From: a virus
Lineage: Duplodnaviria > Caudoviricetes
IMG/VR virus record: IMGVR_UViG_651703056_000001
Location: 1-64,000 of that record
Reading direction: 5' to 3' (one strand)
DNA: 64,000 nt
Within the stretch, counting starts at the first letter, position 1. The number at the start of each line of letters is the position of its first letter. The translations under genes were made by a program, and so were the position numbers. The notes beneath the pieces are model-generated. The model was not told where the DNA came from, made no database searches, and saw nothing but the letters and a program-made list of their open reading frames with translations. This document shows, one piece after another, positions 7,686-50,379 of this stretch.

Positions 7686-8010
7686 TTTAGTTCCTCTATA
7701 TGGAGTAATTCTTATTATTGCCATATGGTGTTTCGGAAGTCATTTAATTAGTAAACAGTATTCTAAAGATTTAAAATCATTAGAATTACATGATAAAATG
7801 AAAATTAAATTAGGGGAAGAATTAAATGTTCCAAAAGAAGAGGTTCTTGAAATATGGTTCGATAGAAGTCTCAGAGATGTAAAAGGAGTATATGTAATTG
7901 ATAATAAAATGTTTAGCGATTACATCTTTATTGTGAAATATACAACTAAAGAAGATAGTTACGAAATTGAAACTTTTAAGAAAGCTCAAAAAGAAGTAAC
8001 AGATTTTTAA
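7666..8010 (+). CDS. Hypothetical membrane-anchored protein
   Basis: N-terminal hydrophobic helix; GAGGAG RBS. Confidence 0.6.
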   Translation: MVDILADLVPLYGVILIIAIWCFGSHLISKQYSKDLKSLELHDKMKIKLGEELNVPKEEVLEIWFDRSLRDVKGVYVIDNKMFSDYIFIVKYTTKEDSYEIETFKKAQKEVTDF

Positions 8011-8135
8011 GGAGTCTAACGATTCCTTTTTTATTTGTTAAGAGATTGTAATAATATATTCATTGACAAATAAGCGTGGTTATGTTATAATATATAATAT
8101 AGATAAAACATAAGTCAACATAAGGAGGTAATTAA

Positions 8136-8369
8136 ATGTTTTGGATTTTAGCTATAATGATAATATTAATGTTTTATCGTCCTAAAGAGATGATACTAAT
8201 TTTGTTCGCTTTTGCATTTTTTGGATTTGGGTATTGGATATTTAGTTTTATATCATCAGAACCAGTATTTACTTTTTCAATCTCTATATTTGTAATTTGG
8301 ATTCTATCTTTATCACTAGGATTGATAAATAAAACAACAGGGGAGGATGAAAATGAAGATGACACCTAA
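8136..8369 (+). CDS. Small membrane protein
   Basis: Highly hydrophobic; own promoter and AGGAGG RBS. Confidence 0.65.
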   Translation: MFWILAIMIILMFYRPKEMILILFAFAFFGFGYWIFSFISSEPVFTFSISIFVIWILSLSLGLINKTTGEDENEDDT

Positions 8370-42523: not shown

Positions 42524-43907
42524 ATGATTTTAAAATATGGAGTACATAATGGCAAAGGAGAAACCGTTGTTTGTATCGTAGACAACATCACAAGTGTAGA
42601 GGAGATTGAAGGAAGTAATGCCCCAATCTTCCATCATGAACGAGGAGAGAAACCTCGAACATACTTTGGAGATATCCTTGATAATAAAGAAATTATCTTT
42701 ATGTATTTGATGAATGATGATTTCAAAACAATTAAGATTTATAAGAAGGCTTAAACATGAAACGTATAAAAACACAGACTGTATCATTTGATGTAGATGA
42801 AGTGAAAGCATTGACAGGTTTTACTTTAAAAAACTCATGGGGAAACTATATTCTTGAACATGAAAAATATGGAATTGTCCATGACATGCTTGAAGATGAA
42901 GATGATGAATCTTTTACAGAAAATAGTCTGTTTAATTATTACATGACTGAGTTAGAAGATACCCTAAGACATTATGTTTATCAAAACTTTAGTTATGATT
43001 ATGCTCATATCGTACAAAATGGTCGATTCGAGTATGCTACTCGTGAATTTACTGTTCAATTCCATTCTGATAATAAAGTTACAGTATATTTTATCCTCGA
43101 AGAAGGTTACTCTTTGGAGATAACTTAATTTACTTTTTATTTTATTGCTTTTGAATATAATATGTAAGGAGAAAATATGGACACAACAACTGCATTAAAG
43201 ATAACAGTAACGGCTGTGATTGGGTATATCTTTGAGTATGGATGGTATAAGAGTGTCGAGTGGATTTCTGAATGGAATTATACATGTGGAATGATATGGT
43301 TATTAGCGACATTTGCAATACAGTTATTTTTAGTTCTTAGATTTATGGATGATTTTCTTGATTTATTTTAAAGTTTATGCTTGACAAATAATAAATAATA
43401 TGGTATAATATACATATAACGTAAGGAGAGAAACATGGAAGATAAATATACCGACATAGTAGTTCGTACAACACTTATAAACATAATTACAGTTCCAGAA
43501 GAAGTCGCTCATGATAGAGATTTGGTTGATGATTTTGTGGAGAAGTTTGGAAAAACAAAAGAAGTGCTGGATACAGATAACATAGAAACTGATGTCTTAG
43601 AGTACTGGTTTGAGGATGAATATGGACATGAACATCGACATTATTGAGAGGAAGTTTGACTATGAATTTAAAAATTAAAATTACAGTATCTTATTCAAGG
43701 TATGACATGGATGATTTTAATGACGGTAGCAAAATAGACTTTGTAGTCGACATACCAATGAAACGCACCAAGAACAAAGATAAGTTAATAGAAGATATAT
43801 CTTGTTTTTGTAGTGAAACAGCAAAAAGTTTGCTTATTGCAAATGATATTGAGTTCAGAGAATATATGATTCGGACTGAATATTTAGAAAAATCAACGCC
43901 AGTATAA
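42524..43907 (+). CDS. Five small hypothetical proteins (42524, 42757, 43177, 43435, 43644)
   Basis: ORFs with RBS between tRNAs. Confidence 0.55.
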
Positions 43908-43985
43908 AATAATTAAAAAAATTCAACTTTATGCTTGACATTATATCTGAAATGTGGTATAATATTAATATAGAGTTGATAATAA

Positions 43986-44058
43986 GTTCGGTTAGTGTAA
44001 TTGGATAACACACATAATTTCTAATTATGTACTCTGGATTCGAGTTCCAGACTGAGCA
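43986..44058 (+). tRNA. tRNA-Arg (TCT)
   Basis: GTTCGGT/ACTGAGC acceptor, CATAA-TTTCTAA-TTATG, CTGGA-TTCGAGT-TCCAG; promoter just upstream. Confidence 0.85.
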
Positions 44059-44130
44059 TTGTGTATGAAAACCTCCACCAAAAAATAAAAGAGGAAATTG
44101 CAAAAGGACACAGTTTGCAGAGGAATACAC

Positions 44131-44619
44131 ATGGAATGGAAAACAATAAACTTTATTTATGGTTTTGAAAACCTTTATGAGGTAAACAAACTTGGACAAG
44201 TTAGAAGAATTGATTCTCAAAAAATATTAAAGCCAACGCTAAATAATACTGGGTATCATACAGTTCATCTATCTAGCGGGAAAAAGAGAAAAAGAATTGG
44301 TATCTCTATATTAGTTGCTAAAGCATTTATTCCTAATCCTGAGAATAAGCCAGAGGTTGACCATATTGATACTAATAGAACAAACAACCATATATCTAAT
44401 TTAAGATGGGTTACTCGTCAAGAGAACATGGATAACCCATTGACATTAAAACATCTTGAAGTCAACAAAGGAAATAAATATTCCGATAAAGGATATAGAG
44501 ATGATATATTAAGTTTGAGAGAAAAAGGTATGTCATATGATGAAATAGCTAAAACTCTTAATTGTTCTAAATCTACCGTCCATTACCACATCAAAGGTAA
44601 AGGAAACGAAAATAATTAA
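44131..44619 (+). CDS. HNH homing endonuclease (NUMOD4-HNH-HTH)
   Basis: 'YEVNKLGQVR', 'LVAKAFIPNPENKPEVDHIDTNRTNN.ISNLRWVT..EN', C-terminal HTH. Confidence 0.9.
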   Translation: MEWKTINFIYGFENLYEVNKLGQVRRIDSQKILKPTLNNTGYHTVHLSSGKKRKRIGISILVAKAFIPNPENKPEVDHIDTNRTNNHISNLRWVTRQENMDNPLTLKHLEVNKGNKYSDKGYRDDILSLREKGMSYDEIAKTLNCSKSTVHYHIKGKGNENN

Positions 44620-45115: not shown

Positions 45116-45200
45116 TAATTAACTGAGGACGGAACAGGCAACCGTCACACCCTAGTGGTTTAAAGAGATGTGGGAAATGTCACCCCACCAGTTAATTTAA

Positions 45201-46452: not shown

Positions 46453-46865
46453 ATTAGGTGACTCATTACAGTTAGATTAGGCGTATGATATTATCCTTTG
46501 GTTTAAATCCATAAAGACAGAGCATAAAGCTCGACTGTGTGTCTATTGCGTGCAATAGATGACGGTTATATCTTGATACAATTAAAAGGAACTTTGAGTA
46601 GTTCGCCTTTATGGAAATGGGTTGTTAGTGTATACCGCAAAATAAAACTATCTGTATCCGTTACTCTTGACGATATAAGAAGCTTAAAATCATGTTTGGT
46701 CTTTGCATATCCTTCCTAAAGACTAAGGTGTACCGATTGACGGTACTTAAATGTCATAGAGTTGACAGCCAAGCAGAGGGTGCATAGCATAGAAGCGAAT
46801 CTAGGGAGCTATAAGTTAAATGATACAGCCAAACAGAAACCGAAACTAACAGCTCTTTGCATAGT

Positions 46866-46936
46866 GCGAACATAGTATAGTGGTAATGCTACAGACTCTA
46901 AGTATGTAAACGTAGGTTCGATTCCTACTGTTCGTA
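46866..46936 (+). tRNA. tRNA with CTA anticodon (amber-suppressor-like, Trp-type body)
   Basis: GCGAACA/TGTTCGT, GTAT-AGTGGTA-ATGC, ACAGA-CTCTAAG-TATGT (one G.A mismatch), GTAGG-TTCGATT-CCTAC. Confidence 0.65.
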
Positions 46937-46992
46937 TATCAGTACCTTATCCGCTTAAGTAGAAATACAGCGCATTAGATAAGGGCGATTGA

Positions 46993-47064: not shown

Positions 47065-47277
47065 TTTTATATGTGTGCAAGTCTCTCGTAAGGGAGATGG
47101 TGTTAAATGAGGAAGATGTCCGACAGCCATATAAAAACAACACACCAAAATACGACTCTATATAGTATTTTGGCTGGCAATCTTGGTGGTAATCGTTATA
47201 GGGACGGTAAGTCCGAAAATGATAGGGAAGGTGTTGTATGCCTATCTGCGAGAGTGTTCAAGAAACTCTCATTTTAT

Positions 47278-47349
47278 ACAGGGTGGGTGGCAAGGCGTCA
47301 CGCTAGTTTCATAAGCTAGAATAGAACGGTTCGATTCCGTTACCTTGAA
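47278..47349 (+). tRNA. tRNA-Met (CAT), unpaired 1:72 (initiator-like)
   Basis: ACAGGGT/ACCTTGA, CTAGT-TTCATAA-GCTAG, AACGG-TTCGATT-CCGTT. Confidence 0.8.
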
Positions 47350-47480
47350 TATTGCTGAAAAGTAAGAACCGACTGTCCGAAATATATCAATATAGAAGTC
47401 TACGGTATAGAAAACGTTCATAAGGGTGTGATTGTTCCGTATGGGAACTTGACCATAAGTTGCTCGTTAACCCTTAGCCA

Positions 47481-47547
47481 GAAAGAGTGGTCTAATGTAA
47501 GACACTTGAAATTTCAAGAGTTGTGAGTTCAAATCTCATCTCTTTCA
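47481..47547 (+). ncRNA. Anticodon-less tRNA-like RNA
   Basis: GAAAGAG/CTCTTTC, GTCT/AGAC D-stem, CTTGA-AATT-TCAAG (4-nt loop), GTGAG-TTCAAAT-CTCAT. Confidence 0.7.
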
Positions 47548-47735: not shown

Positions 47736-47779
47736 TTTAATTTAAAATATTATTACTTAGGAAAGAAGGAGGTAGGATA

Positions 47780-48898
47780 GTGTCCACACACAAAATTGCT
47801 CAGAAAATACCTTTTAAACCAACAAAGAAACAAGTGAAGTTCTTTAAGGATTGTTTTGGTGCAAGAAGATTTGCATATAATAGTCAAGTTGCTGTATTCA
47901 ATACCTACTCAGAAGAAAATAAAGATTTGACCTATCCTAAAATTACAGACCTAAAACGTGAGAATGAATGGTTGAAAACAAGTGTTGTTCCAGCTCATAG
48001 TCTGTCTAATGCGCTCATGGACTTCGGAAAAGCTCGGACGGCTTACTTCAAAAAAGCCAATTATGGTAAAAATCGTCCAAGCTTTCATAGTCGTCATGAT
48101 TATATTCAATCATTTAGAAATGGAATGCCATTCAAAACAATACGTGAAAATGGAAGATACCAACTTTCAAAGAAACTAGGCTACATTAAAATTCGAAAAC
48201 GTGATAAACTACGCTACCCAATTGAACAAATGACACAATGGACGATTAAGCGTGAAGGAGAAAAATACTATATTATTTTCTTGTTCACGGTTGAAATTGA
48301 AACACGACCTGAAATCACAGGCTCAGTTGGTATAGACCTCGGTATTAAAGATTTTGCAATAACATCAGACGGTGAAAAGATTGACCTACCTAAATCTCTT
48401 GGAGAGTTGGAAGCCAAAGTCATAAAAGAACAGCGTAAACTCTCACGTAAACAAAAAGGGAAAGGTAAGCAGTCGAACAACTTCTATAAGCAAAAAGCCA
48501 AGTTACAAAAGGCTCATGCAAAAATACGCCATGTTCGTGAGAATTTCCAACATCATGTTTCAAAACAGCTGATTGAAGAAAACCAATTCATCGCTATTGA
48601 GACATTGAGACCATCCAACATGATTAAGAACCACAAGCTGGCACGTTATATAGCAAGAGCCAGCTGGCGACAGTTCACAAATCAGCTAGAATATAAAGCG
48701 GATTGGTATGGAAGAACTTTACAAAAGGTGGGAACATACTATCCAAGTTCAAAAACTTGCGGAAATTGTGGGAATATCTATCACAATTTGAAGCTCTCAG
48801 AACGGGAGTGGACGTGCGCTAAATGTGGTACTTATCATGATAGAGACCTTAATGCAAGTCAAAATATCCTCAAAGAAGCACAACGATTAGCTTCTTAA
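47780..48898 (+). CDS. tnpB: TnpB RNA-guided endonuclease (IS200/IS605 family), no tnpA in window
   Basis: FGARRFAYN, RuvC-I GIDLG, RuvC-II IAIETL, CGNC...CAKC Zn finger, RuvC-III HDRDLNA; AGGAGG RBS, GTG start. Confidence 0.92.
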   Translation: MSTHKIAQKIPFKPTKKQVKFFKDCFGARRFAYNSQVAVFNTYSEENKDLTYPKITDLKRENEWLKTSVVPAHSLSNALMDFGKARTAYFKKANYGKNRPSFHSRHDYIQSFRNGMPFKTIRENGRYQLSKKLGYIKIRKRDKLRYPIEQMTQWTIKREGEKYYIIFLFTVEIETRPEITGSVGIDLGIKDFAITSDGEKIDLPKSLGELEAKVIKEQRKLSRKQKGKGKQSNNFYKQKAKLQKAHAKIRHVRENFQHHVSKQLIEENQFIAIETLRPSNMIKNHKLARYIARASWRQFTNQLEYKADWYGRTLQKVGTYYPSSKTCGNCGNIYHNLKLSEREWTCAKCGTYHDRDLNASQNILKEAQRLAS

Positions 48899-49061
48899 AA
48901 TATTTGTAATCGTTAAAGAACCGACCGACAATCGGGGATAGCTCACTCCATATAGGCGACCTCTGGCACGAGGAAACAAATCCGAAGCTAAGTGTACCTA
49001 GTTCGTGAGAATCACGGCACTTTAATGCCGTGAGTGTTCAACTCTTGACAAACTCATTTGA
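48899..49061 (+). ncRNA. TnpB omega/reRNA scaffold with IS right end (TTCAA 49037-49041) and guide from 49042
   Basis: GC-rich structured tail, subterminal hairpin TCACGGCA-CTTTAA-TGCCGTGA, then GTGTTCAA; 5' boundary probably inside tnpB. Confidence 0.75.
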
Positions 49062-49073
49062 TTATGATATAAT
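49045..49073 (+). promoter_or_regulatory. Sigma-A promoter
   Basis: TTGACA 49045-49050, 17 nt spacer ending TGA, TATAAT 49068-49073. Confidence 0.85.
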
Positions 49074-49111
49074 AATATATGTAAGTTAAAAAAACGTAAG
49101 GAGAACATAAT

Positions 49112-49219
49112 ATGGGGTGCATAATTCCGATTGTATTGATTTTAATATTTCTAGCAAATCCAGTTCTGGGTTTAGTCGCAACGGTTATTGTATTAGCAAT
49201 AGCAAGTCTTAAAAAATAA
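49112..49219 (+). CDS. 35-aa hydrophobic peptide
   Basis: MGCIIPIVLILIFLANPVLGLVATVIVLAIASLKK; AAGGAG RBS. Confidence 0.6.
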   Translation: MGCIIPIVLILIFLANPVLGLVATVIVLAIASLKK

Positions 49220-49233
49220 GGAGAATAAACACA

Positions 49234-49890
49234 ATGACACAAAGTAAAACACTCACAGTACAAGAAGCGCTTAATGAACTTAAAGTTCTTGACAAACGTA
49301 TTGAACGTAAACTTGGCGACACTAAATATGTAGGTGTTGTTCAAGAAGACAAACTTGTTTATCCTGCATCATCAAAAGGTGATAAAGATAAATTCATTTC
49401 AGACGCAAAATCTAGTATTGATTCATTACTTGATTTGATTGCTTACCGTCATGCTTTGAAAGCTGGTGTATTGCGTTCTAATGCGTTAACAGAAGTTGTA
49501 ATTGGAGACAAAACAATGACAGTTGCAGAGGCAATTGATTATAAAACTTCAATCCAAAGTGAAAAAGATTTGGTTCAAACTCTCGTTAATGATTTGACCC
49601 AAGCGACAACTAAGATGACACGTATTAATGAGGATATTGATAAGACTCTTGAAAAGAAACAAAATAGTTTGTTAAGCTCAGATAAAGATGATAAAAATCC
49701 TGATATTATTAAATTCTTGAAAGAACAAGCTGAGAGCGAAAAAGCAACAGTTCTTGAATTGGAAGTTGGTAAAGCTATTGTAAGTGATTACACTAAAGCT
49801 AAACTTGATTCAATTGAACAATTTGAACAAACAGTTGATTTCAAGTTAACTGCATCAAATGTTTCAACAGAAATTACCGTTGAGTGGTAA
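49234..49890 (+). CDS. Coiled-coil protein, DIP1984-like ('septicolysin'-misannotated) family
   Basis: 'TVQEALNELKVLDKRI...LK.GV.RSNA.T.V.IG...MTVAEAI...VDFKLT.SN.ST.I.VEW' two-fold internal repeat; family recalled, not searched. Confidence 0.65.
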   Translation: MTQSKTLTVQEALNELKVLDKRIERKLGDTKYVGVVQEDKLVYPASSKGDKDKFISDAKSSIDSLLDLIAYRHALKAGVLRSNALTEVVIGDKTMTVAEAIDYKTSIQSEKDLVQTLVNDLTQATTKMTRINEDIDKTLEKKQNSLLSSDKDDKNPDIIKFLKEQAESEKATVLELEVGKAIVSDYTKAKLDSIEQFEQTVDFKLTASNVSTEITVEW

Positions 49891-49905
49891 TAATTAAGTT
49901 ATAAT

Positions 49906-50267
49906 CATGTTATGACGAACAACTTAAAGTATAGATTTCCAGACAGTTTTGTTGAAAGATTCTTATGACTGGAAATAAAATATTAAATATAATGAATCTT
50001 TAAAAAACTATAAAAGAATATACTAGAAGTCTCTCTTGGAGACAATTATCAATTTTGATTGGCATAGAGACCTCTCAAAATTGATAAAGATGACTAATAG
50101 ATTATAGTTTAAAGCTCATGCTTTATAGCTTAGAGTTTATATCTTATATTGGATAATGAATCCAGTTATAGATTAAGTTTGAGGGGTTAAGTTTTCTTAA
50201 AAATCCTAGAGTTACGTTTTGTGACTTTCTATATCAGTTTGGTTGTACGCTAGGCTGTCATAACATG
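49906..50267 (+). ncRNA. ~360-nt structured RNA with closing helix, pseudoknots and heptamer repeats
   Basis: CATGTTATGAC (49906-49916) pairs perfectly with GTCATAACATG (50257-50267); internal 13-bp helix; 7-nt repeats; no ORF. Confidence 0.7.
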
Positions 50268-50269
50268 GT

Positions 50270-50306
50270 AAAATAAGGACTACTTCGGTAGTTCTTATTT
50301 TTTTTA
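50270..50306 (+). terminator. Intrinsic terminator
   Basis: AAAATAAGGACTAC-TTCG-GTAGTTCTTATTTTTTTT. Confidence 0.85.
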
Positions 50307-50379
50307 TACTTTTCTCTTGACAAAGGAAATTAGTTATGGTATAATATATTATAACCGATTGAAAGGAATGGTATTAACA

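What the first reader, a model, noticed from the sequence alone, without database searches (positions are those of the whole stretch)
49045..50306. Candidate new RNP system: coiled-coil protein co-transcribed with a ~360-nt closed, pseudoknotted ncRNA
Seen: one transcription unit runs from the promoter at 49045-49073 through a 35-aa membrane peptide, a 218-aa helical protein and 380 nt without an ORF to a strong terminator. The non-coding part is closed by a perfect 11-bp helix (49906-49916 with 50257-50267). Inside, ATTTCCAG/CTGGAAAT (49935-42/49969-76) forms a stem whose loop AAAGATTC pairs with downstream GAATCTTT (49994-50001), an H-type pseudoknot. A perfect 13-bp helix (50046-58/50075-87) has a loop AGAGAC that can pair with upstream GTCTCT (50029-34), a second pseudoknot or switch. 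CCTAG/CTAGG (50205/50250) and a heptamer repeat track complete it. The protein has a two-fold 'TVxEA...SN.xT.I/V' repeat that I recall from the uncharacterised DIP1984-like family. I also recall similar repeat-bearing tails after homologues in other Firmicutes, but have not verified this. Inference: a dedicated protein-RNA pair, such as an RNA-templated oligomer, a type III TA-like module or an anti-defence RNP. I know of no description of it.
Basis: partly seen in the sequence, partly recalled or inferred. Interest (0 to 1): 0.9.

Follow-up and report, generated by a model that had tools for sequence, protein, structure and literature searches.

The report
New phage RNA–protein gene pair
A 370-base, knotted non-coding RNA sits directly behind a small helical protein gene, and the same pair recurs in hundreds of phages (including T5) and in some Bacillus chromosomes, matches no described RNA family and has no known function.

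Summary
In this Lactococcus 949-group phage, one promoter-to-terminator unit (49045-50301) carries a 35-aa ORF, a 218-aa helical protein and a ~370-nt RNA (49902-50271). The RNA is closed by a long helix, P1. P1 and Px covary strongly (96% of cells paired against 68% shuffled; 314 double changes against 100). The protein family is large (3,498 cluster representatives). A model of the RNA's 3' domain hits right behind the gene in 143 of 153 distant loci and nowhere else in them. These include T5 (behind T5.085, unannotated there), phage G and Bacillus chromosomes. In 91 Bacillaceae genomes the RNA and the protein co-occur 16 of 17 times; the exception is a deletion relic. No Rfam, Pfam or NCBIfam family matches. 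The protein resembles only PDB 3KDQ, weakly. In phages the pair lies in tRNA arrays, and tRNA genes are sometimes nested inside the RNA. A dedicated ribonucleoprotein reading the heptad tract is the best guess. Binding and function are untested, and the protein is acidic.

The parts
49045..49073 (+). Sigma-70-type promoter of the unit: TTGACA, 17-nt spacer with TG, TATAAT.
   Evidence: 12 of 12 matches. A 1281-bp TnpB element ends 4-5 bp upstream.
49112..49219 (+). 35-aa hydrophobic ORF. Seen in the 949 group only, so probably not part of the conserved module.
   Evidence: ORF. phrog_9039, E = 2e-19, function unknown. Annotated in AM4, LW81, P1048, phiL47 and AM1. PMBT69's record annotates none before its homologue.
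49234..49890 (+). 218-aa acidic helical protein with an internal two-fold repeat (TVxEA(L/I) ... SNxxTxV/I). It is the partner gene of the RNA.
   Evidence: - ORF.
- phrog_1491, E = 3e-68.
- No Pfam or NCBIfam family.
- 3,498 cluster representatives at E <= 1e-3.
- AlphaFold pLDDT 86.5.
- pI 5.0.
- 3KDQ is the top structural match: Z 9.3, Foldseek probability 0.98.
49902..50271 (+). The structured ncRNA, measured from the outer end of P1 to the outer end of P1'.
   Evidence: Boundaries from the P1 rule. MFE z = -7.6. Conserved in 949-group phages and PMBT69 and in distant loci.
49904..49916 (+). P1 5' strand. It pairs with 50257-50269. GAA (49917-19) follows as the conserved junction.
   Evidence: Three compensatory double changes in PMBT69. 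14 P1 column pairs are 95-96% paired, and 13 of them show double changes.
49919..49924 (+). P2 5' strand (ACAACT). It pairs with GGTTGT at 50241-46 and crosses Px, which makes a pseudoknot.
   Evidence: Within-sequence complementarity is 5.94 bp against 4.00 bp for swapped partners; 0 of 5000 permutations reach it.
49929..49935 (+). P3 5' strand (GTATAGA). It pairs with TCTATAT at 50228-34, in the loop of a hairpin in the 3' domain.
   Evidence: 6.49 bp against 4.92 bp; 0 of 5000 permutations. One compensatory change in PMBT69.
49935..50001 (+). H-type pseudoknot. S1 is 49935-42 / 49969-76. S2 is 49955-62 / 49994-50001.
   Evidence: Read from the sequence. Family-wide S2 test: 6.68 bp against 4.12 bp, 0 of 5000 permutations, in the 40 of 63 RNAs that fit the CCC...GGGTnA anchor.
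50002..50092 (+). Variable peripheral region, with hairpins at 50029-43 and 50046-58 / 50075-87.
   Evidence: Replaced by unrelated sequence in AM4-type phages. Other family members carry 0-3 hairpins here, or a tRNA gene.
50093..50189 (+). Heptad tract: UYA-N4 repeats, seven in exact register at 50102-50146. A small hairpin (50151-65) interrupts it, and further heptads follow.
   Evidence: - Invariant or near-invariant T and A columns recur at 7-nt spacing.
- Autocorrelation is 0.53 at lag 7 and 0.49 at lag 14.
- Runs of 5 or more in-phase UYA occur in 33 of 63 RNAs, against 0 of 1260 shuffles.
50205..50254 (+). 3' domain closed by Px (CCTAG 50205-09 / CTAGG 50250-54). The conserved ...AAAAUCC precedes it. 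The domain holds P3' and P2'.
   Evidence: Px is 98.4% paired and 4 of its 5 pairs show double changes. RNAalifold predicts it independently. Model R1 scores 39.9 bits, E = 2e-6, here.
50257..50269 (+). P1 3' strand.
50270..50301 (+). Intrinsic terminator ending the unit.
   Evidence: 14-bp stem followed by a T run. Conserved, with compensatory changes, in sister phages.

Best explanation
The stretch encodes a two-part module: a ~210-aa acidic helical protein and, co-transcribed right behind it, a 244-431-nt multi-pseudoknotted RNA. The two are inherited, kept and lost together.

**Shown.** The RNA is a real, strand-specific, structurally constrained gene product. Its presence is tied almost one-to-one to the protein gene across phages of Bacillota, Enterobacteria, Pseudomonas and Vibrio, and in Bacillus chromosomes.

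**Inferred.**
- The two form a ribonucleoprotein.
- The pseudoknotted core (P1, P2, P3, Px, PK) is a scaffold. It presents a single-stranded array of about 10-12 heptads (UYA-N4).
- Protein copies bind this array in 7-nt register through the conserved SNxxT and TVxEA hairpin pole, much as TRAP or HutP read spaced triplets.
- Because the module sits inside phage tRNA arrays and tolerates nested tRNA genes, its target is most likely tRNA-related or part of host-phage conflict.

**My odds.**
- Real coupled RNA gene: about 0.95.
- Direct RNP: about 0.5.
- Heptad tract is the protein's binding platform: about 0.35.
For: **Covariation.**
- P1 plus Px: 96.2% of 1147 cells are paired, against 68.1% in shuffles (0 of 500 reach it). 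314 double-change cells, against 99.8. With the partner slid by 1-3 columns, pairing drops to 28-44%.
- Px was not used to pick the sequences. It is 98.4% paired.
- P2, P3 and pseudoknot stem S2 each beat 5000 partner permutations.

**Strand and molecule.** 147 of 1147 paired cells are G.U. These would be A.C mismatches on the other strand or in a DNA cruciform.

**Linkage.**
- Model R1 hits 66 of 73 phage loci and 77 of 80 bacterial loci. Every hit is on the + strand, 200-400 nt past the stop codon, with no other hit in about 0.9 Mb.
- The RNA is single-copy in the window's own genome and in three bacterial genomes.
- In one bacterial family of 91 genomes, the RNA is in 17 and the protein in 16 (E <= 1e-56). 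The 16 coincide and are adjacent. The odd one has lost the gene and the RNA's 5' half together.

**Control for P1.** A P1 of 12 bp or more is found downstream in 107 of 144 loci. Controls give 10 (reverse complement), 7 (upstream) and 3 (shuffled) of 144.

**One transcription unit.** One promoter, no terminator before the RNA, and a terminator after it.

**Heptad periodicity.**

**Conserved polar residues of the protein.** R72, S82, N83, T86, T96 and N209 sit on the short beta hairpins.

**Weak hint of a discrete RNA in T5.**
- In library X8, a 335-nt contig covers exactly the RNA, at depth 831 against 328 for the gene's contig.
- Adapter-like loose ends lie 9 nt 5' of P1 (X8) and inside P1' (X9).
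Against:
- **The protein is acidic.** pI is 4.96-6.43 in 21 of 21 family members. That is unusual for an RNA binder.
- **No RNA-binding domain is recognisable.** Its fold resembles generic helical bundles: rows 2-50 of the structural search have Z 6.6-8.1, close to the top hit's 9.3.
- **Genetic linkage has other explanations.** A cis-acting 3' element, or an RNA that works alone, would give the same pattern.
- **Expression evidence is thin.** It comes from assembled contigs of T5 libraries. Such contigs cannot show strand, ends or level, and may contain DNA.
- **No RNA data exist for the window's own phage.**
- **P1 was used to define boundaries.** Its covariation count is therefore partly circular. 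The control and the independent helices offset this.
- **In-phase UYA runs are short in some members.** T5 and B. altitudinis have runs of only 3.
Confidence: 0.55

Rival explanations
1. The RNA acts on its own. It would be an 'ornate' structured RNA or RNA-only assembly of the GOLLD/ROOL kind, or a ribozyme. The protein would be only an accessory factor such as a folding or stability helper, or a separate effector made at the same time.
For: - The architecture is large, multi-pseudoknotted and strongly conserved.
- Like GOLLD and ROOL, it lies next to tRNA genes in phages.
- The protein is acidic and has no RNA-binding domain.
- Published cryo-EM work shows that comparable RNAs form RNA-only complexes (PMC12286853; abstract seen in the listing).
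Against: Co-occurrence and co-loss with the protein gene are near-perfect. GOLLD and ROOL have no such partner. The 7-nt periodic, A-rich tract is predicted to be mostly unpaired. It looks like a set of ligand-binding sites rather than a folded core.
Confidence: 0.2
2. The RNA is a cis-acting 3' untranslated element of the protein's mRNA. It would control stability, processing or autoregulation, and would not act in trans.
For: It always lies on the same strand, starting 1-109 nt after the stop in the loci where the rule found it (one bacterial locus) and within 85 nt in the rest. It shares one promoter and one terminator with the gene. In two T5 libraries a single contig spans both gene and RNA.
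Against: - A size of 244-431 nt with five covarying long-range or pseudoknot helices across phyla is far more than known 3' stabilisers need.
- tRNA genes nested inside it imply that it gets cut into pieces while P1-P3 could still hold them together.
- In X8, the contig over the RNA has 2.5 times the depth of the gene's contig and has separate ends (weak).
Confidence: 0.12
3. The pair is a toxin-antitoxin-like or defence/counter-defence module. The repeat-bearing RNA would neutralise or sense the protein, on the logic of type III TA systems. The module would be carried by bacteria for defence and by phages as a decoy or anti-defence.
For: - It is a self-contained two-part unit found both in phages and as a stand-alone locus between housekeeping genes in B. 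altitudinis.
- Its distribution among related genomes is patchy: 16-17 of 91.
- The RNA bears tandem repeats.
- The window protein has a weak PADLOC AbiQ row, E = 0.0087.
Against: - The AbiQ row is marginal. It is absent for the three other homologues tested, and the predicted helical fold is unlike ToxN/AbiQ.
- The gene order is reversed: protein first.
- The repeat unit is 7 nt, not ~35 nt.
- No defence-island neighbours appeared in the two bacterial loci examined.
Confidence: 0.1
4. It is a DNA-level element, with no functional RNA: a replication origin with iterons, a recombination site, or a miniature inverted-repeat mobile element whose terminal repeats mimic P1.
For: It has an inverted repeat at its ends, a tract of short direct repeats, and a position just upstream of the topoisomerase genes in the window.
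Against: - 147 G.U cells and strong strand asymmetry.
- Always co-oriented with the gene.
- Single-copy per genome.
- The 7-bp period does not fit the DNA helical repeat.
- In other phages and in Bacillus it is not near replication genes.
- Internal pseudoknot helices covary.
Confidence: 0.03

Closest known systems
GOLLD and ROOL large 'ornate' RNAs (Rfam families; cryo-EM in PMC12286853, abstract seen only)
   Same: Both are large, highly structured, pseudoknotted non-coding RNAs of unknown function. Both are found in phages and prophages, typically beside tRNA genes.
   Different: There is no match to either model. This RNA is shorter (244-431 nt), has a 7-nt periodic tract, and is strictly coupled to one protein gene, which those RNAs are not.
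TRAP-trp leader and HutP-hut mRNA (oligomeric proteins reading spaced triplets; recalled knowledge, not from any call)
   Same: The RNA presents a run of short triplets at fixed spacing. UYA-N4 here compares with NAG-N2-3 for TRAP and UAG-N4 for HutP. This arrangement is the hallmark of binding by many identical subunits.
   Different: The protein family is unrelated. The tract here is embedded in a large scaffold RNA rather than in a leader. Binding was not tested.
TnpB/IscB with omega-RNA (one such element lies just upstream, at 47780-49041)
   Same: The gene order is the same: a protein gene followed directly by a structured RNA made from the same transcript, the two working as an RNP.
   Different: This protein has no RuvC or other nuclease domain. 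There are no transposon ends. The RNA fold and size are unrelated, and it is single-copy.
Type III toxin-antitoxin systems (ToxIN, AbiQ/antiQ)
   Same: A protein plus a repeat-bearing RNA in one operon, found in bacteria and phages.
   Different: In those systems the RNA comes first and has ~35-nt repeats, and the toxin is a ToxN-fold endoribonuclease. Here the protein comes first, the repeats are 7 nt, and the protein is helical. Only a marginal AbiQ row was seen.
tmRNA-SmpB, RNase P RNA-RnpA and Ro60-Y RNA
   Same: Each has an RNA closed by a helix formed from its 5' and 3' ends. tmRNA has several pseudoknots and a size of about 350 nt. Each has a small partner-protein gene nearby and functional ties to tRNA.
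   Different: ARAGORN finds no tmRNA. No Rfam model of any of these gives a hit even at E <= 10. P1 is 12-19 bp rather than an acceptor stem. The partner protein is unrelated.
PDB 3KDQ, a functionally unknown conserved protein of Corynebacterium diphtheriae
   Same: It is the top hit by profile-sequence search (E = 0.05, over the SNxxT...MTxAEA motif), by Foldseek (probability 0.98, E = 0.014) and by VIA-align (Z 9.3, 149 of 152 residues).
   Different: Identity is 15% and rmsd 9.6 Å. It has 152 aa against ~210. The NCBIfam and Pfam scans gave no family. Its function is unknown too, so the likeness explains nothing.

Membership tests
Any Rfam 15 family (4227 models, including GOLLD, ROOL, RNase P, tmRNA, Y RNA, HEARO/omega-RNA, skipping-rope, drum) | A covariance-model score at or above the family's gathering threshold. 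| tested here: not met
   No hit over the RNA in the window or in 40 homologous loci, including T5 and phage G. In permissive mode (E <= 10) on the window, B. altitudinis and T5, only chance-level rows appeared, all with E > 1.
tmRNA | A tRNA-like domain plus a tag reading frame, as detected by ARAGORN. | tested here: not met
   ARAGORN reports 7 tRNAs and no tmRNA in the window.
Type III toxin-antitoxin (ToxIN/AbiQ type) | A toxin of the ToxN/AbiQ endoribonuclease family. | tested here: inconclusive
   PADLOC gives an AbiQ row at E = 0.0087 for the window protein only. The three other homologues give none. The predicted fold is long helices plus small hairpins.
Type III toxin-antitoxin (ToxIN/AbiQ type) | An antitoxin made of tandem ~34-36-nt repeats encoded upstream of the toxin gene. 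| tested here: not met
   The repeats have a 7-nt period and lie downstream of the protein gene.
DIP1984-like protein family (NCBIfam / DUF6847; names recalled) | A match to the family HMM above its cut-off. | tested here: not met
   NCBIfam: 0 families at E <= 1. Pfam: nothing above cut-off for 21 members. The Atlas lists PF20935 only as a lead: score 0.86, carried by 15% of that cluster's members.
DIP1984-like protein family (by structure, PDB 3KDQ) | A shared fold standing clearly above background. | tested here: inconclusive
   3KDQ is the top hit in three searches, but all are weak: E = 0.05; Foldseek E = 0.014, TM 0.32/0.42; Z 9.3 against 8.1 for the next row.
Phage tail fibre (the label of phrog_1491 and of RefSeq records) | A position in the structural module, with fibre-like domains. 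| tested here: not met
   The gene lies in tRNA or early regions, next to topoisomerase, RNase H and exonuclease genes. It also occurs in a Bacillus chromosome between housekeeping genes. No fibre domain was found in Pfam. The label appears to be inherited annotation.
MITE / mobile element | Several copies per genome with conserved terminal inverted repeats. | tested here: not met
   There is one copy in the window's genome and one in each of three bacterial genomes. The P1 arms differ between lineages and covary.

The most novel reading that the evidence does not exclude
This is an undescribed, widespread ribonucleoprotein. Multiple copies of an acidic, internally duplicated helical protein would assemble in 7-nt register on a UYA-N4 array displayed by a multi-pseudoknotted scaffold RNA. 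The particle would act on tRNAs. For example, it could shield, sort or process the products of phage tRNA arrays, or counter host tRNA-directed defences. That would explain why phages keep the module inside tRNA clusters and even nest tRNA genes within the RNA, and why phage T5 has carried it unnoticed.
Probability: 0.2. Interest if true: 0.95.

Novelty: categorically new. Interest (0 to 1): 0.9.

Why it matters
**What would be new.** If this holds, it adds a new class of large structured RNA together with a dedicated protein partner. Neither matches any family in Rfam, Pfam or NCBIfam.

**How widespread it is.**
- The protein family has 3,498 cluster representatives.
- 721 phage records hold a match to the protein.
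- Carriers include the classic model phage T5, Bacillus phage G, dairy Lactococcus phages, and Bacillus chromosomes that model R1 and the protein profile pick out in the B. altitudinis family.

**Why it is testable now.** T5 with E. coli K-12, and B. pumilus-group strains, are easy genetic systems, so function can be tested directly.

**What questions it touches.**
- It bears on what the non-tRNA content of phage tRNA arrays is for.
- It offers a natural RNA with an unusual strict 7-nt periodic array for structural work.
- It corrects a widely propagated 'tail fiber protein' annotation.

Tried and rejected
**RNA database and sequence searches**
- Rfam at gathering and permissive thresholds found nothing. 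A RAGATH-27 row on the minus strand (E = 2.6; 22.8 bits against a cut-off of 76.1) is chance.
- An exact 16-mer from the most conserved block found only 949-group contigs plus one chance match, L009, in IMG/VR. Sequence-level search cannot reach distant members.
- Fuzzy motif searches mostly failed.

**P1 detection and pseudoknot tests**
- My first P1 rule (10 bp or more) has about 30% false positives: 42-50 of 144 controls. I replaced it with the 12-bp count.
- The rule picked a spurious helix for PMBT69.
- Several bacterial picks were spurious and I dropped them before alignment: L104, L116, L123, L129, L134, L137, L138, L139, L145.
- A generic pseudoknot search did not separate real from shuffled sequences (12.68 against 11.77 bp). 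An anchored test replaced it. That test covers only the 40 of 63 RNAs that fit the anchor.
- RNAalifold on the 949 group alone preferred P2/P3 and missed Px.
- MAFFT did not align P2, P3 or P5 well enough for column counts.

**Protein searches**
- Pfam, NCBIfam and PADLOC gave no solid family.

**T5 RNA libraries**
- Only assembled contigs were available, so they are no proof of transcription, strand or ends.
- Gaps in cover at L193 7954-7964 (X8) and 7944-7979 (X9) are not evidence by themselves.

**Literature**
- 'DIP1984' gave 1 irrelevant paper.
- 'T5.085', 'phrog_1491', 'DUF6847' and '3KDQ' gave 2 irrelevant papers.
- Searches on phage structured RNA and tRNA gave no description of this RNA in listings or passages.
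- The DRT9 paper (PMC12483538, passages read) says only that T5's tRNA-rich del-1 region is deletable. It does not mention this gene or RNA.
- The catalogue of 10,006 candidate viral structured RNAs (PMC10690425, passages read) may list fragments of this RNA in its supplementary tables.
Full report

The window belongs to a 114,768-base virus record. Over the finding it is about 90% identical to Lactococcus 949-group phages (Audreyjarvisvirus: AM4, LW81, WRP3, P1048, phiL47, AM1). It is 64% identical to the more distant PMBT69.

- A perfect promoter lies at 49045-49073 and a terminator at 50270-50301. The next perfect promoter, at 50317-50345, precedes a GyrB-like gene.
- ORFs of 35 aa and 218 aa lie in between, followed by about 380 nt with no ORF of 25 aa or more on either strand.
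- The + strand folds far better than shuffles: z = -7.6, with 0 of 100 shuffles as stable.

**Conservation among close relatives**

I aligned the intergenic stretch of eight phages, then ten.
- The 5' 100 nt and the 3' 200 nt are conserved as far out as PMBT69.
- The closing helix carries three compensatory double changes in PMBT69 and a G.U change in AM1.
AM4-type phages replace it with unrelated sequence.
- That part is therefore real but lineage-specific. The second pseudoknot is not supported.

**The pair is found far beyond Lactococcus**

The protein belongs to phrog_1491, which is labelled 'tail fiber protein'. It has no Pfam or NCBIfam family.

The family is large:
- A profile search of 1.84 billion representatives finds 3,498 at E <= 1e-3 and 1,559 at E <= 1e-30. 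The best 150 are all 202-222 aa long.
- tblastn finds it in 721 phage records: Salmonella 285, Escherichia 140, Pseudomonas 58, Vibrio 55, Bacillus 33, Klebsiella 32, Lactococcus 20.
- There are 323 confirmed loci in IMG/VR and 169 in species-representative genomes, mostly Bacillota.

In the 80 IMG/VR loci that were kept, most have 300-760 nt without an ORF of 60 aa or more right after the gene. Aligning a few of these with the window showed the same ends: helix-GAA(A/C)... at the 5' end and ...GGCU-helix' at the 3' end, with entirely different helix sequences.

Phage T5 has the pair behind gene T5.085 (NC_005859 43505-44143, minus strand). The RNA occupies about 43144-43494. It is unannotated, although that record annotates another 'stable RNA with unknown functions'. 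The gene-plus-RNA stretch is conserved in 444 T5-like records, 438 of them covering 80% or more. Bacillus phage G has it behind gp530.

**Architecture and tests**

From 82 non-redundant RNAs of 244-431 nt, I aligned the 63 that are 380 nt or shorter and lack odd features (A5). The 19 dropped rows are listed in the script.

*P1 and Px.* An unbiased scan of all column pairs recovers two helices:
- the closing helix P1;
- an internal helix Px, of form CCNNG / CNNGG, at 50205-09 / 50250-54 in the window.

On these 19 pairs:
- 96.2% of 1147 cells are paired, against 68.1% after shuffling (0 of 500 shuffles reach it);
- 314 cells have changes on both sides, against 99.8;
- sliding the partner by 1-3 columns drops pairing to 28-44%.

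P1 served to set the boundaries, so I ran a control. A P1 of 12 bp or more is found downstream of the gene in 107 of 144 loci. It is found in 10 reverse complements, 7 upstream regions and 3 shuffles of 144. Px played no part in selection beyond its outer G-G. It is 98.4% paired with four covarying pairs, and RNAalifold predicts it independently.

*P2 and P3.* I tested two further long-range interactions by swapping partners between sequences:
- P2 joins the bases after GAA with the bases before Px-3' (49919-24 / 50241-46 in the window). Self-complementarity is 5.94 bp against 4.00 bp for swapped partners.
- P3 joins the next 5' segment with the loop of a hairpin in the 3' domain (49929-35 / 50228-34). 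The values are 6.49 bp against 4.92 bp.
- For each, 0 of 5000 permutations reach the observed value.
- P2 crosses Px, so the core is pseudoknotted.

S2 gives 6.68 bp against 4.12 bp, with 0 of 5000 permutations. This holds in the 40 of 63 RNAs that fit the anchor.

Relatedness among the sequences inflates all these permutation figures. They are not probabilities.

*The variable region.* It follows the pseudoknot and carries 0-3 hairpins. In several lineages it holds a whole tRNA gene on the same strand:
- L037/38 (Val), L059 (Ile) and L165 (Gln), which is 4 of 111 RNAs scanned by ARAGORN;
- L049/50 and L093, seen by Rfam and by eye.

*The heptad tract.*
- Its median length is 85 nt. Autocorrelation is 0.53 at lag 7 and 0.49 at lag 14, against 0.21-0.36 at other lags. 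The rest of the RNA is flat at 0.27-0.31.
- Invariant or near-invariant T and A columns recur every 7 nt. The unit is UYA-N4.
- In the window, T falls at 50102, 50109, ... 50144.
- Uninterrupted in-phase runs of 5 or more UYA occur in 33 of 63 RNAs and in 0 of 1260 shuffles. T5 and B. altitudinis reach only 3.

**RNA rather than DNA, and which strand**

Of the 1147 cells in P1 and Px, 147 are G.U. These would be mismatches on the other strand or in DNA.

The element is always co-oriented with the gene. It is single-copy in the window's genome and in three bacterial genomes.

**Expression**

No run was sought for the window's own phage.

For the T5 locus L193, 13 RNA libraries from several studies hold the stretch as assembled contigs. 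I laid four of them:
- Two have one contig across both gene and RNA.
- In X8, a 335-nt contig covers 7965-8299, which is essentially the RNA (P1 to P1' = 7971-8321). Its depth is 831, against 328 for the gene's contig.
- In X8 there are also very deep short contigs at 8270-8330. An adapter-like loose end lies at 8330, which is 3 nt after the stop codon and 9 nt before P1.
- In X9, a contig ends with adapter-like letters at 7980, inside P1'.

Contigs cannot prove ends, strand, level or even transcription. I count this as a weak hint.

**Linkage of RNA and protein**

A covariance model of the 3' domain (R1: 84 positions, built from A6) finds:
- exactly one hit in the window, at 50177-50259 with E = 2e-6;
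- 66 of 73 phage loci and 77 of 80 bacterial loci, each on the + strand 200-400 nt past the stop, with no other hit.

Fifty-nine of these 143 loci were in the training set. Among the misses:
- L095 and L166 are truncated.
- L118 has only 587 nt downstream.
- L035/36, L067 and L165 have the RNA by the P1 rule.
- L062/76 and L092 have it by eye.

In the bacterial family of G001 (91 genomes), R1 hits 17 genomes and the protein profile hits 16 at E <= 1e-56. One further, unrelated row has E = 7.6e-4. The 16 coincide, with the two features adjacent. The seventeenth, G021, keeps only the last ~150 nt of the RNA directly after the neighbouring permease gene. The gene and the RNA's 5' half were therefore lost together.

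**Context**

In phages the pair lies in or beside tRNA arrays. Skipping-rope or drum RNAs are nearby in some:
- window 45118-45196;
- L040, L029, L126.

In B. altitudinis the pair is a stand-alone unit. It sits between a homocysteine methyltransferase / amino-acid permease pair on one side and an Ig-domain protein and a subtilase on the other. It is not in a prophage.

**The protein**

- AlphaFold (pLDDT 86.5) gives three long helices plus short beta hairpins.
- The alignment shows an internal duplication. TVxEAL at 8-13 matches TVAEAI at 96-101. SNAxTxV at 82-88 matches SNxxTxI at 208-214. The invariant polar residues are R72, S82, N83, T86, T96 and N209.
- It is acidic in all 21 members, with pI 4.96-6.43.
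- The only recurring relative is PDB 3KDQ, a C. diphtheriae protein of unknown function. It tops three weak searches.

**How it most likely works**

*Shown:* this is a structurally constrained RNA gene that is inherited, retained and lost with this protein gene, and shares one transcription unit with it.

*Inferred:* the two form an RNP.
- The pseudoknotted core would hold out an unpaired UYA-N4 array.
- Copies of the protein would read that array in 7-nt register, by analogy with TRAP and HutP (recalled knowledge).
- The tRNA-array setting points to a tRNA-related or host-phage conflict role.

The acidity of the protein and the absence of any binding data are the main reasons I hold the RNP at about 0.5 and the heptad-platform idea at about 0.35.

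*Rivals:*
- an RNA-only machine with an accessory protein (0.2);
- a cis-acting 3' element (0.12);
- a TA-like or defence module (0.1);
- a DNA element (0.03).

**Novelty**

No Rfam family matches in the window, in 40 homologous loci, or in three permissive scans. No Pfam or NCBIfam family matches the protein.

Literature searches and passages read in two papers gave no description of the RNA, of T5.085, or of the pair.

Two gaps remain:
- Subscription-journal papers are not in the library.
- The supplementary tables of the 10,006-candidate viral RNA catalogue (PMC10690425) were closed, so an unnamed partial listing cannot be excluded.

Noticed in passing
window 47761-49041: A 1281-bp IS200/IS605-type element carries only a TnpB gene (47780-48898; Pfam OrfB_IS605 and the Cas12f1-like TNB domain) followed by a non-coding tail. 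It is inserted 4-5 bp upstream of the -35 box of the finding's promoter. AM4 and WRP3 are contiguous across this point, and LW81 carries a copy elsewhere in its genome.
   Followed up: partly
window 46865-46937: ARAGORN calls a tRNA with anticodon CTA (reported as tRNA-Pyl), which would make it an amber-suppressor-type tRNA inside the phage's tRNA array. Rfam also scores it as a tRNA.
   Followed up: no
window 45118-45196; also L040 2648-2735, L126 3516-3644, L029 4398-4505: Skipping-rope RNA (76.7 bits in the window) lies in the same tRNA-rich regions as the new RNA, and in one locus so does drum RNA. In L126, skipping-rope sits about 80 nt after the new RNA's 3' end.
   Followed up: no
L037/L038, L049/L050, L059, L093, L165 (inside the RNA, about 65-185 nt from its 5' end): Complete tRNA genes (Val, Ile, Gln and others) are nested on the same strand in the RNA's variable region, in several unrelated phage lineages and one MAG. 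Processing of the tRNA would split the RNA into two pieces, which P1-P3 could still hold together.
   Followed up: partly
NC_005859 (T5) 43505-44143, and many RefSeq phage records: The partner protein is annotated as 'tail fiber protein' in many records. Its genomic position (early and tRNA regions, and Bacillus chromosomes) and the absence of fibre domains argue that this label is a propagated error.
   Followed up: partly
L205 (G021:C4:199700-201500): One Bacillaceae genome keeps only the last ~150 nt of the RNA, directly after the conserved neighbouring permease gene. This is a deletion relic of the module.
   Followed up: yes
window 47277-47350 versus 47481-47547: ARAGORN and Rfam disagree on one tRNA each. 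ARAGORN calls a tRNA-Met at 47277-47350, which Rfam does not list. Rfam calls a tRNA at 47481-47547, which ARAGORN does not list.
   Followed up: no
L025 1409-1685: A group I intron (Rfam, 64.8 bits) lies about 1.3 kb upstream of the protein gene in one IMG/VR phage contig.
   Followed up: no
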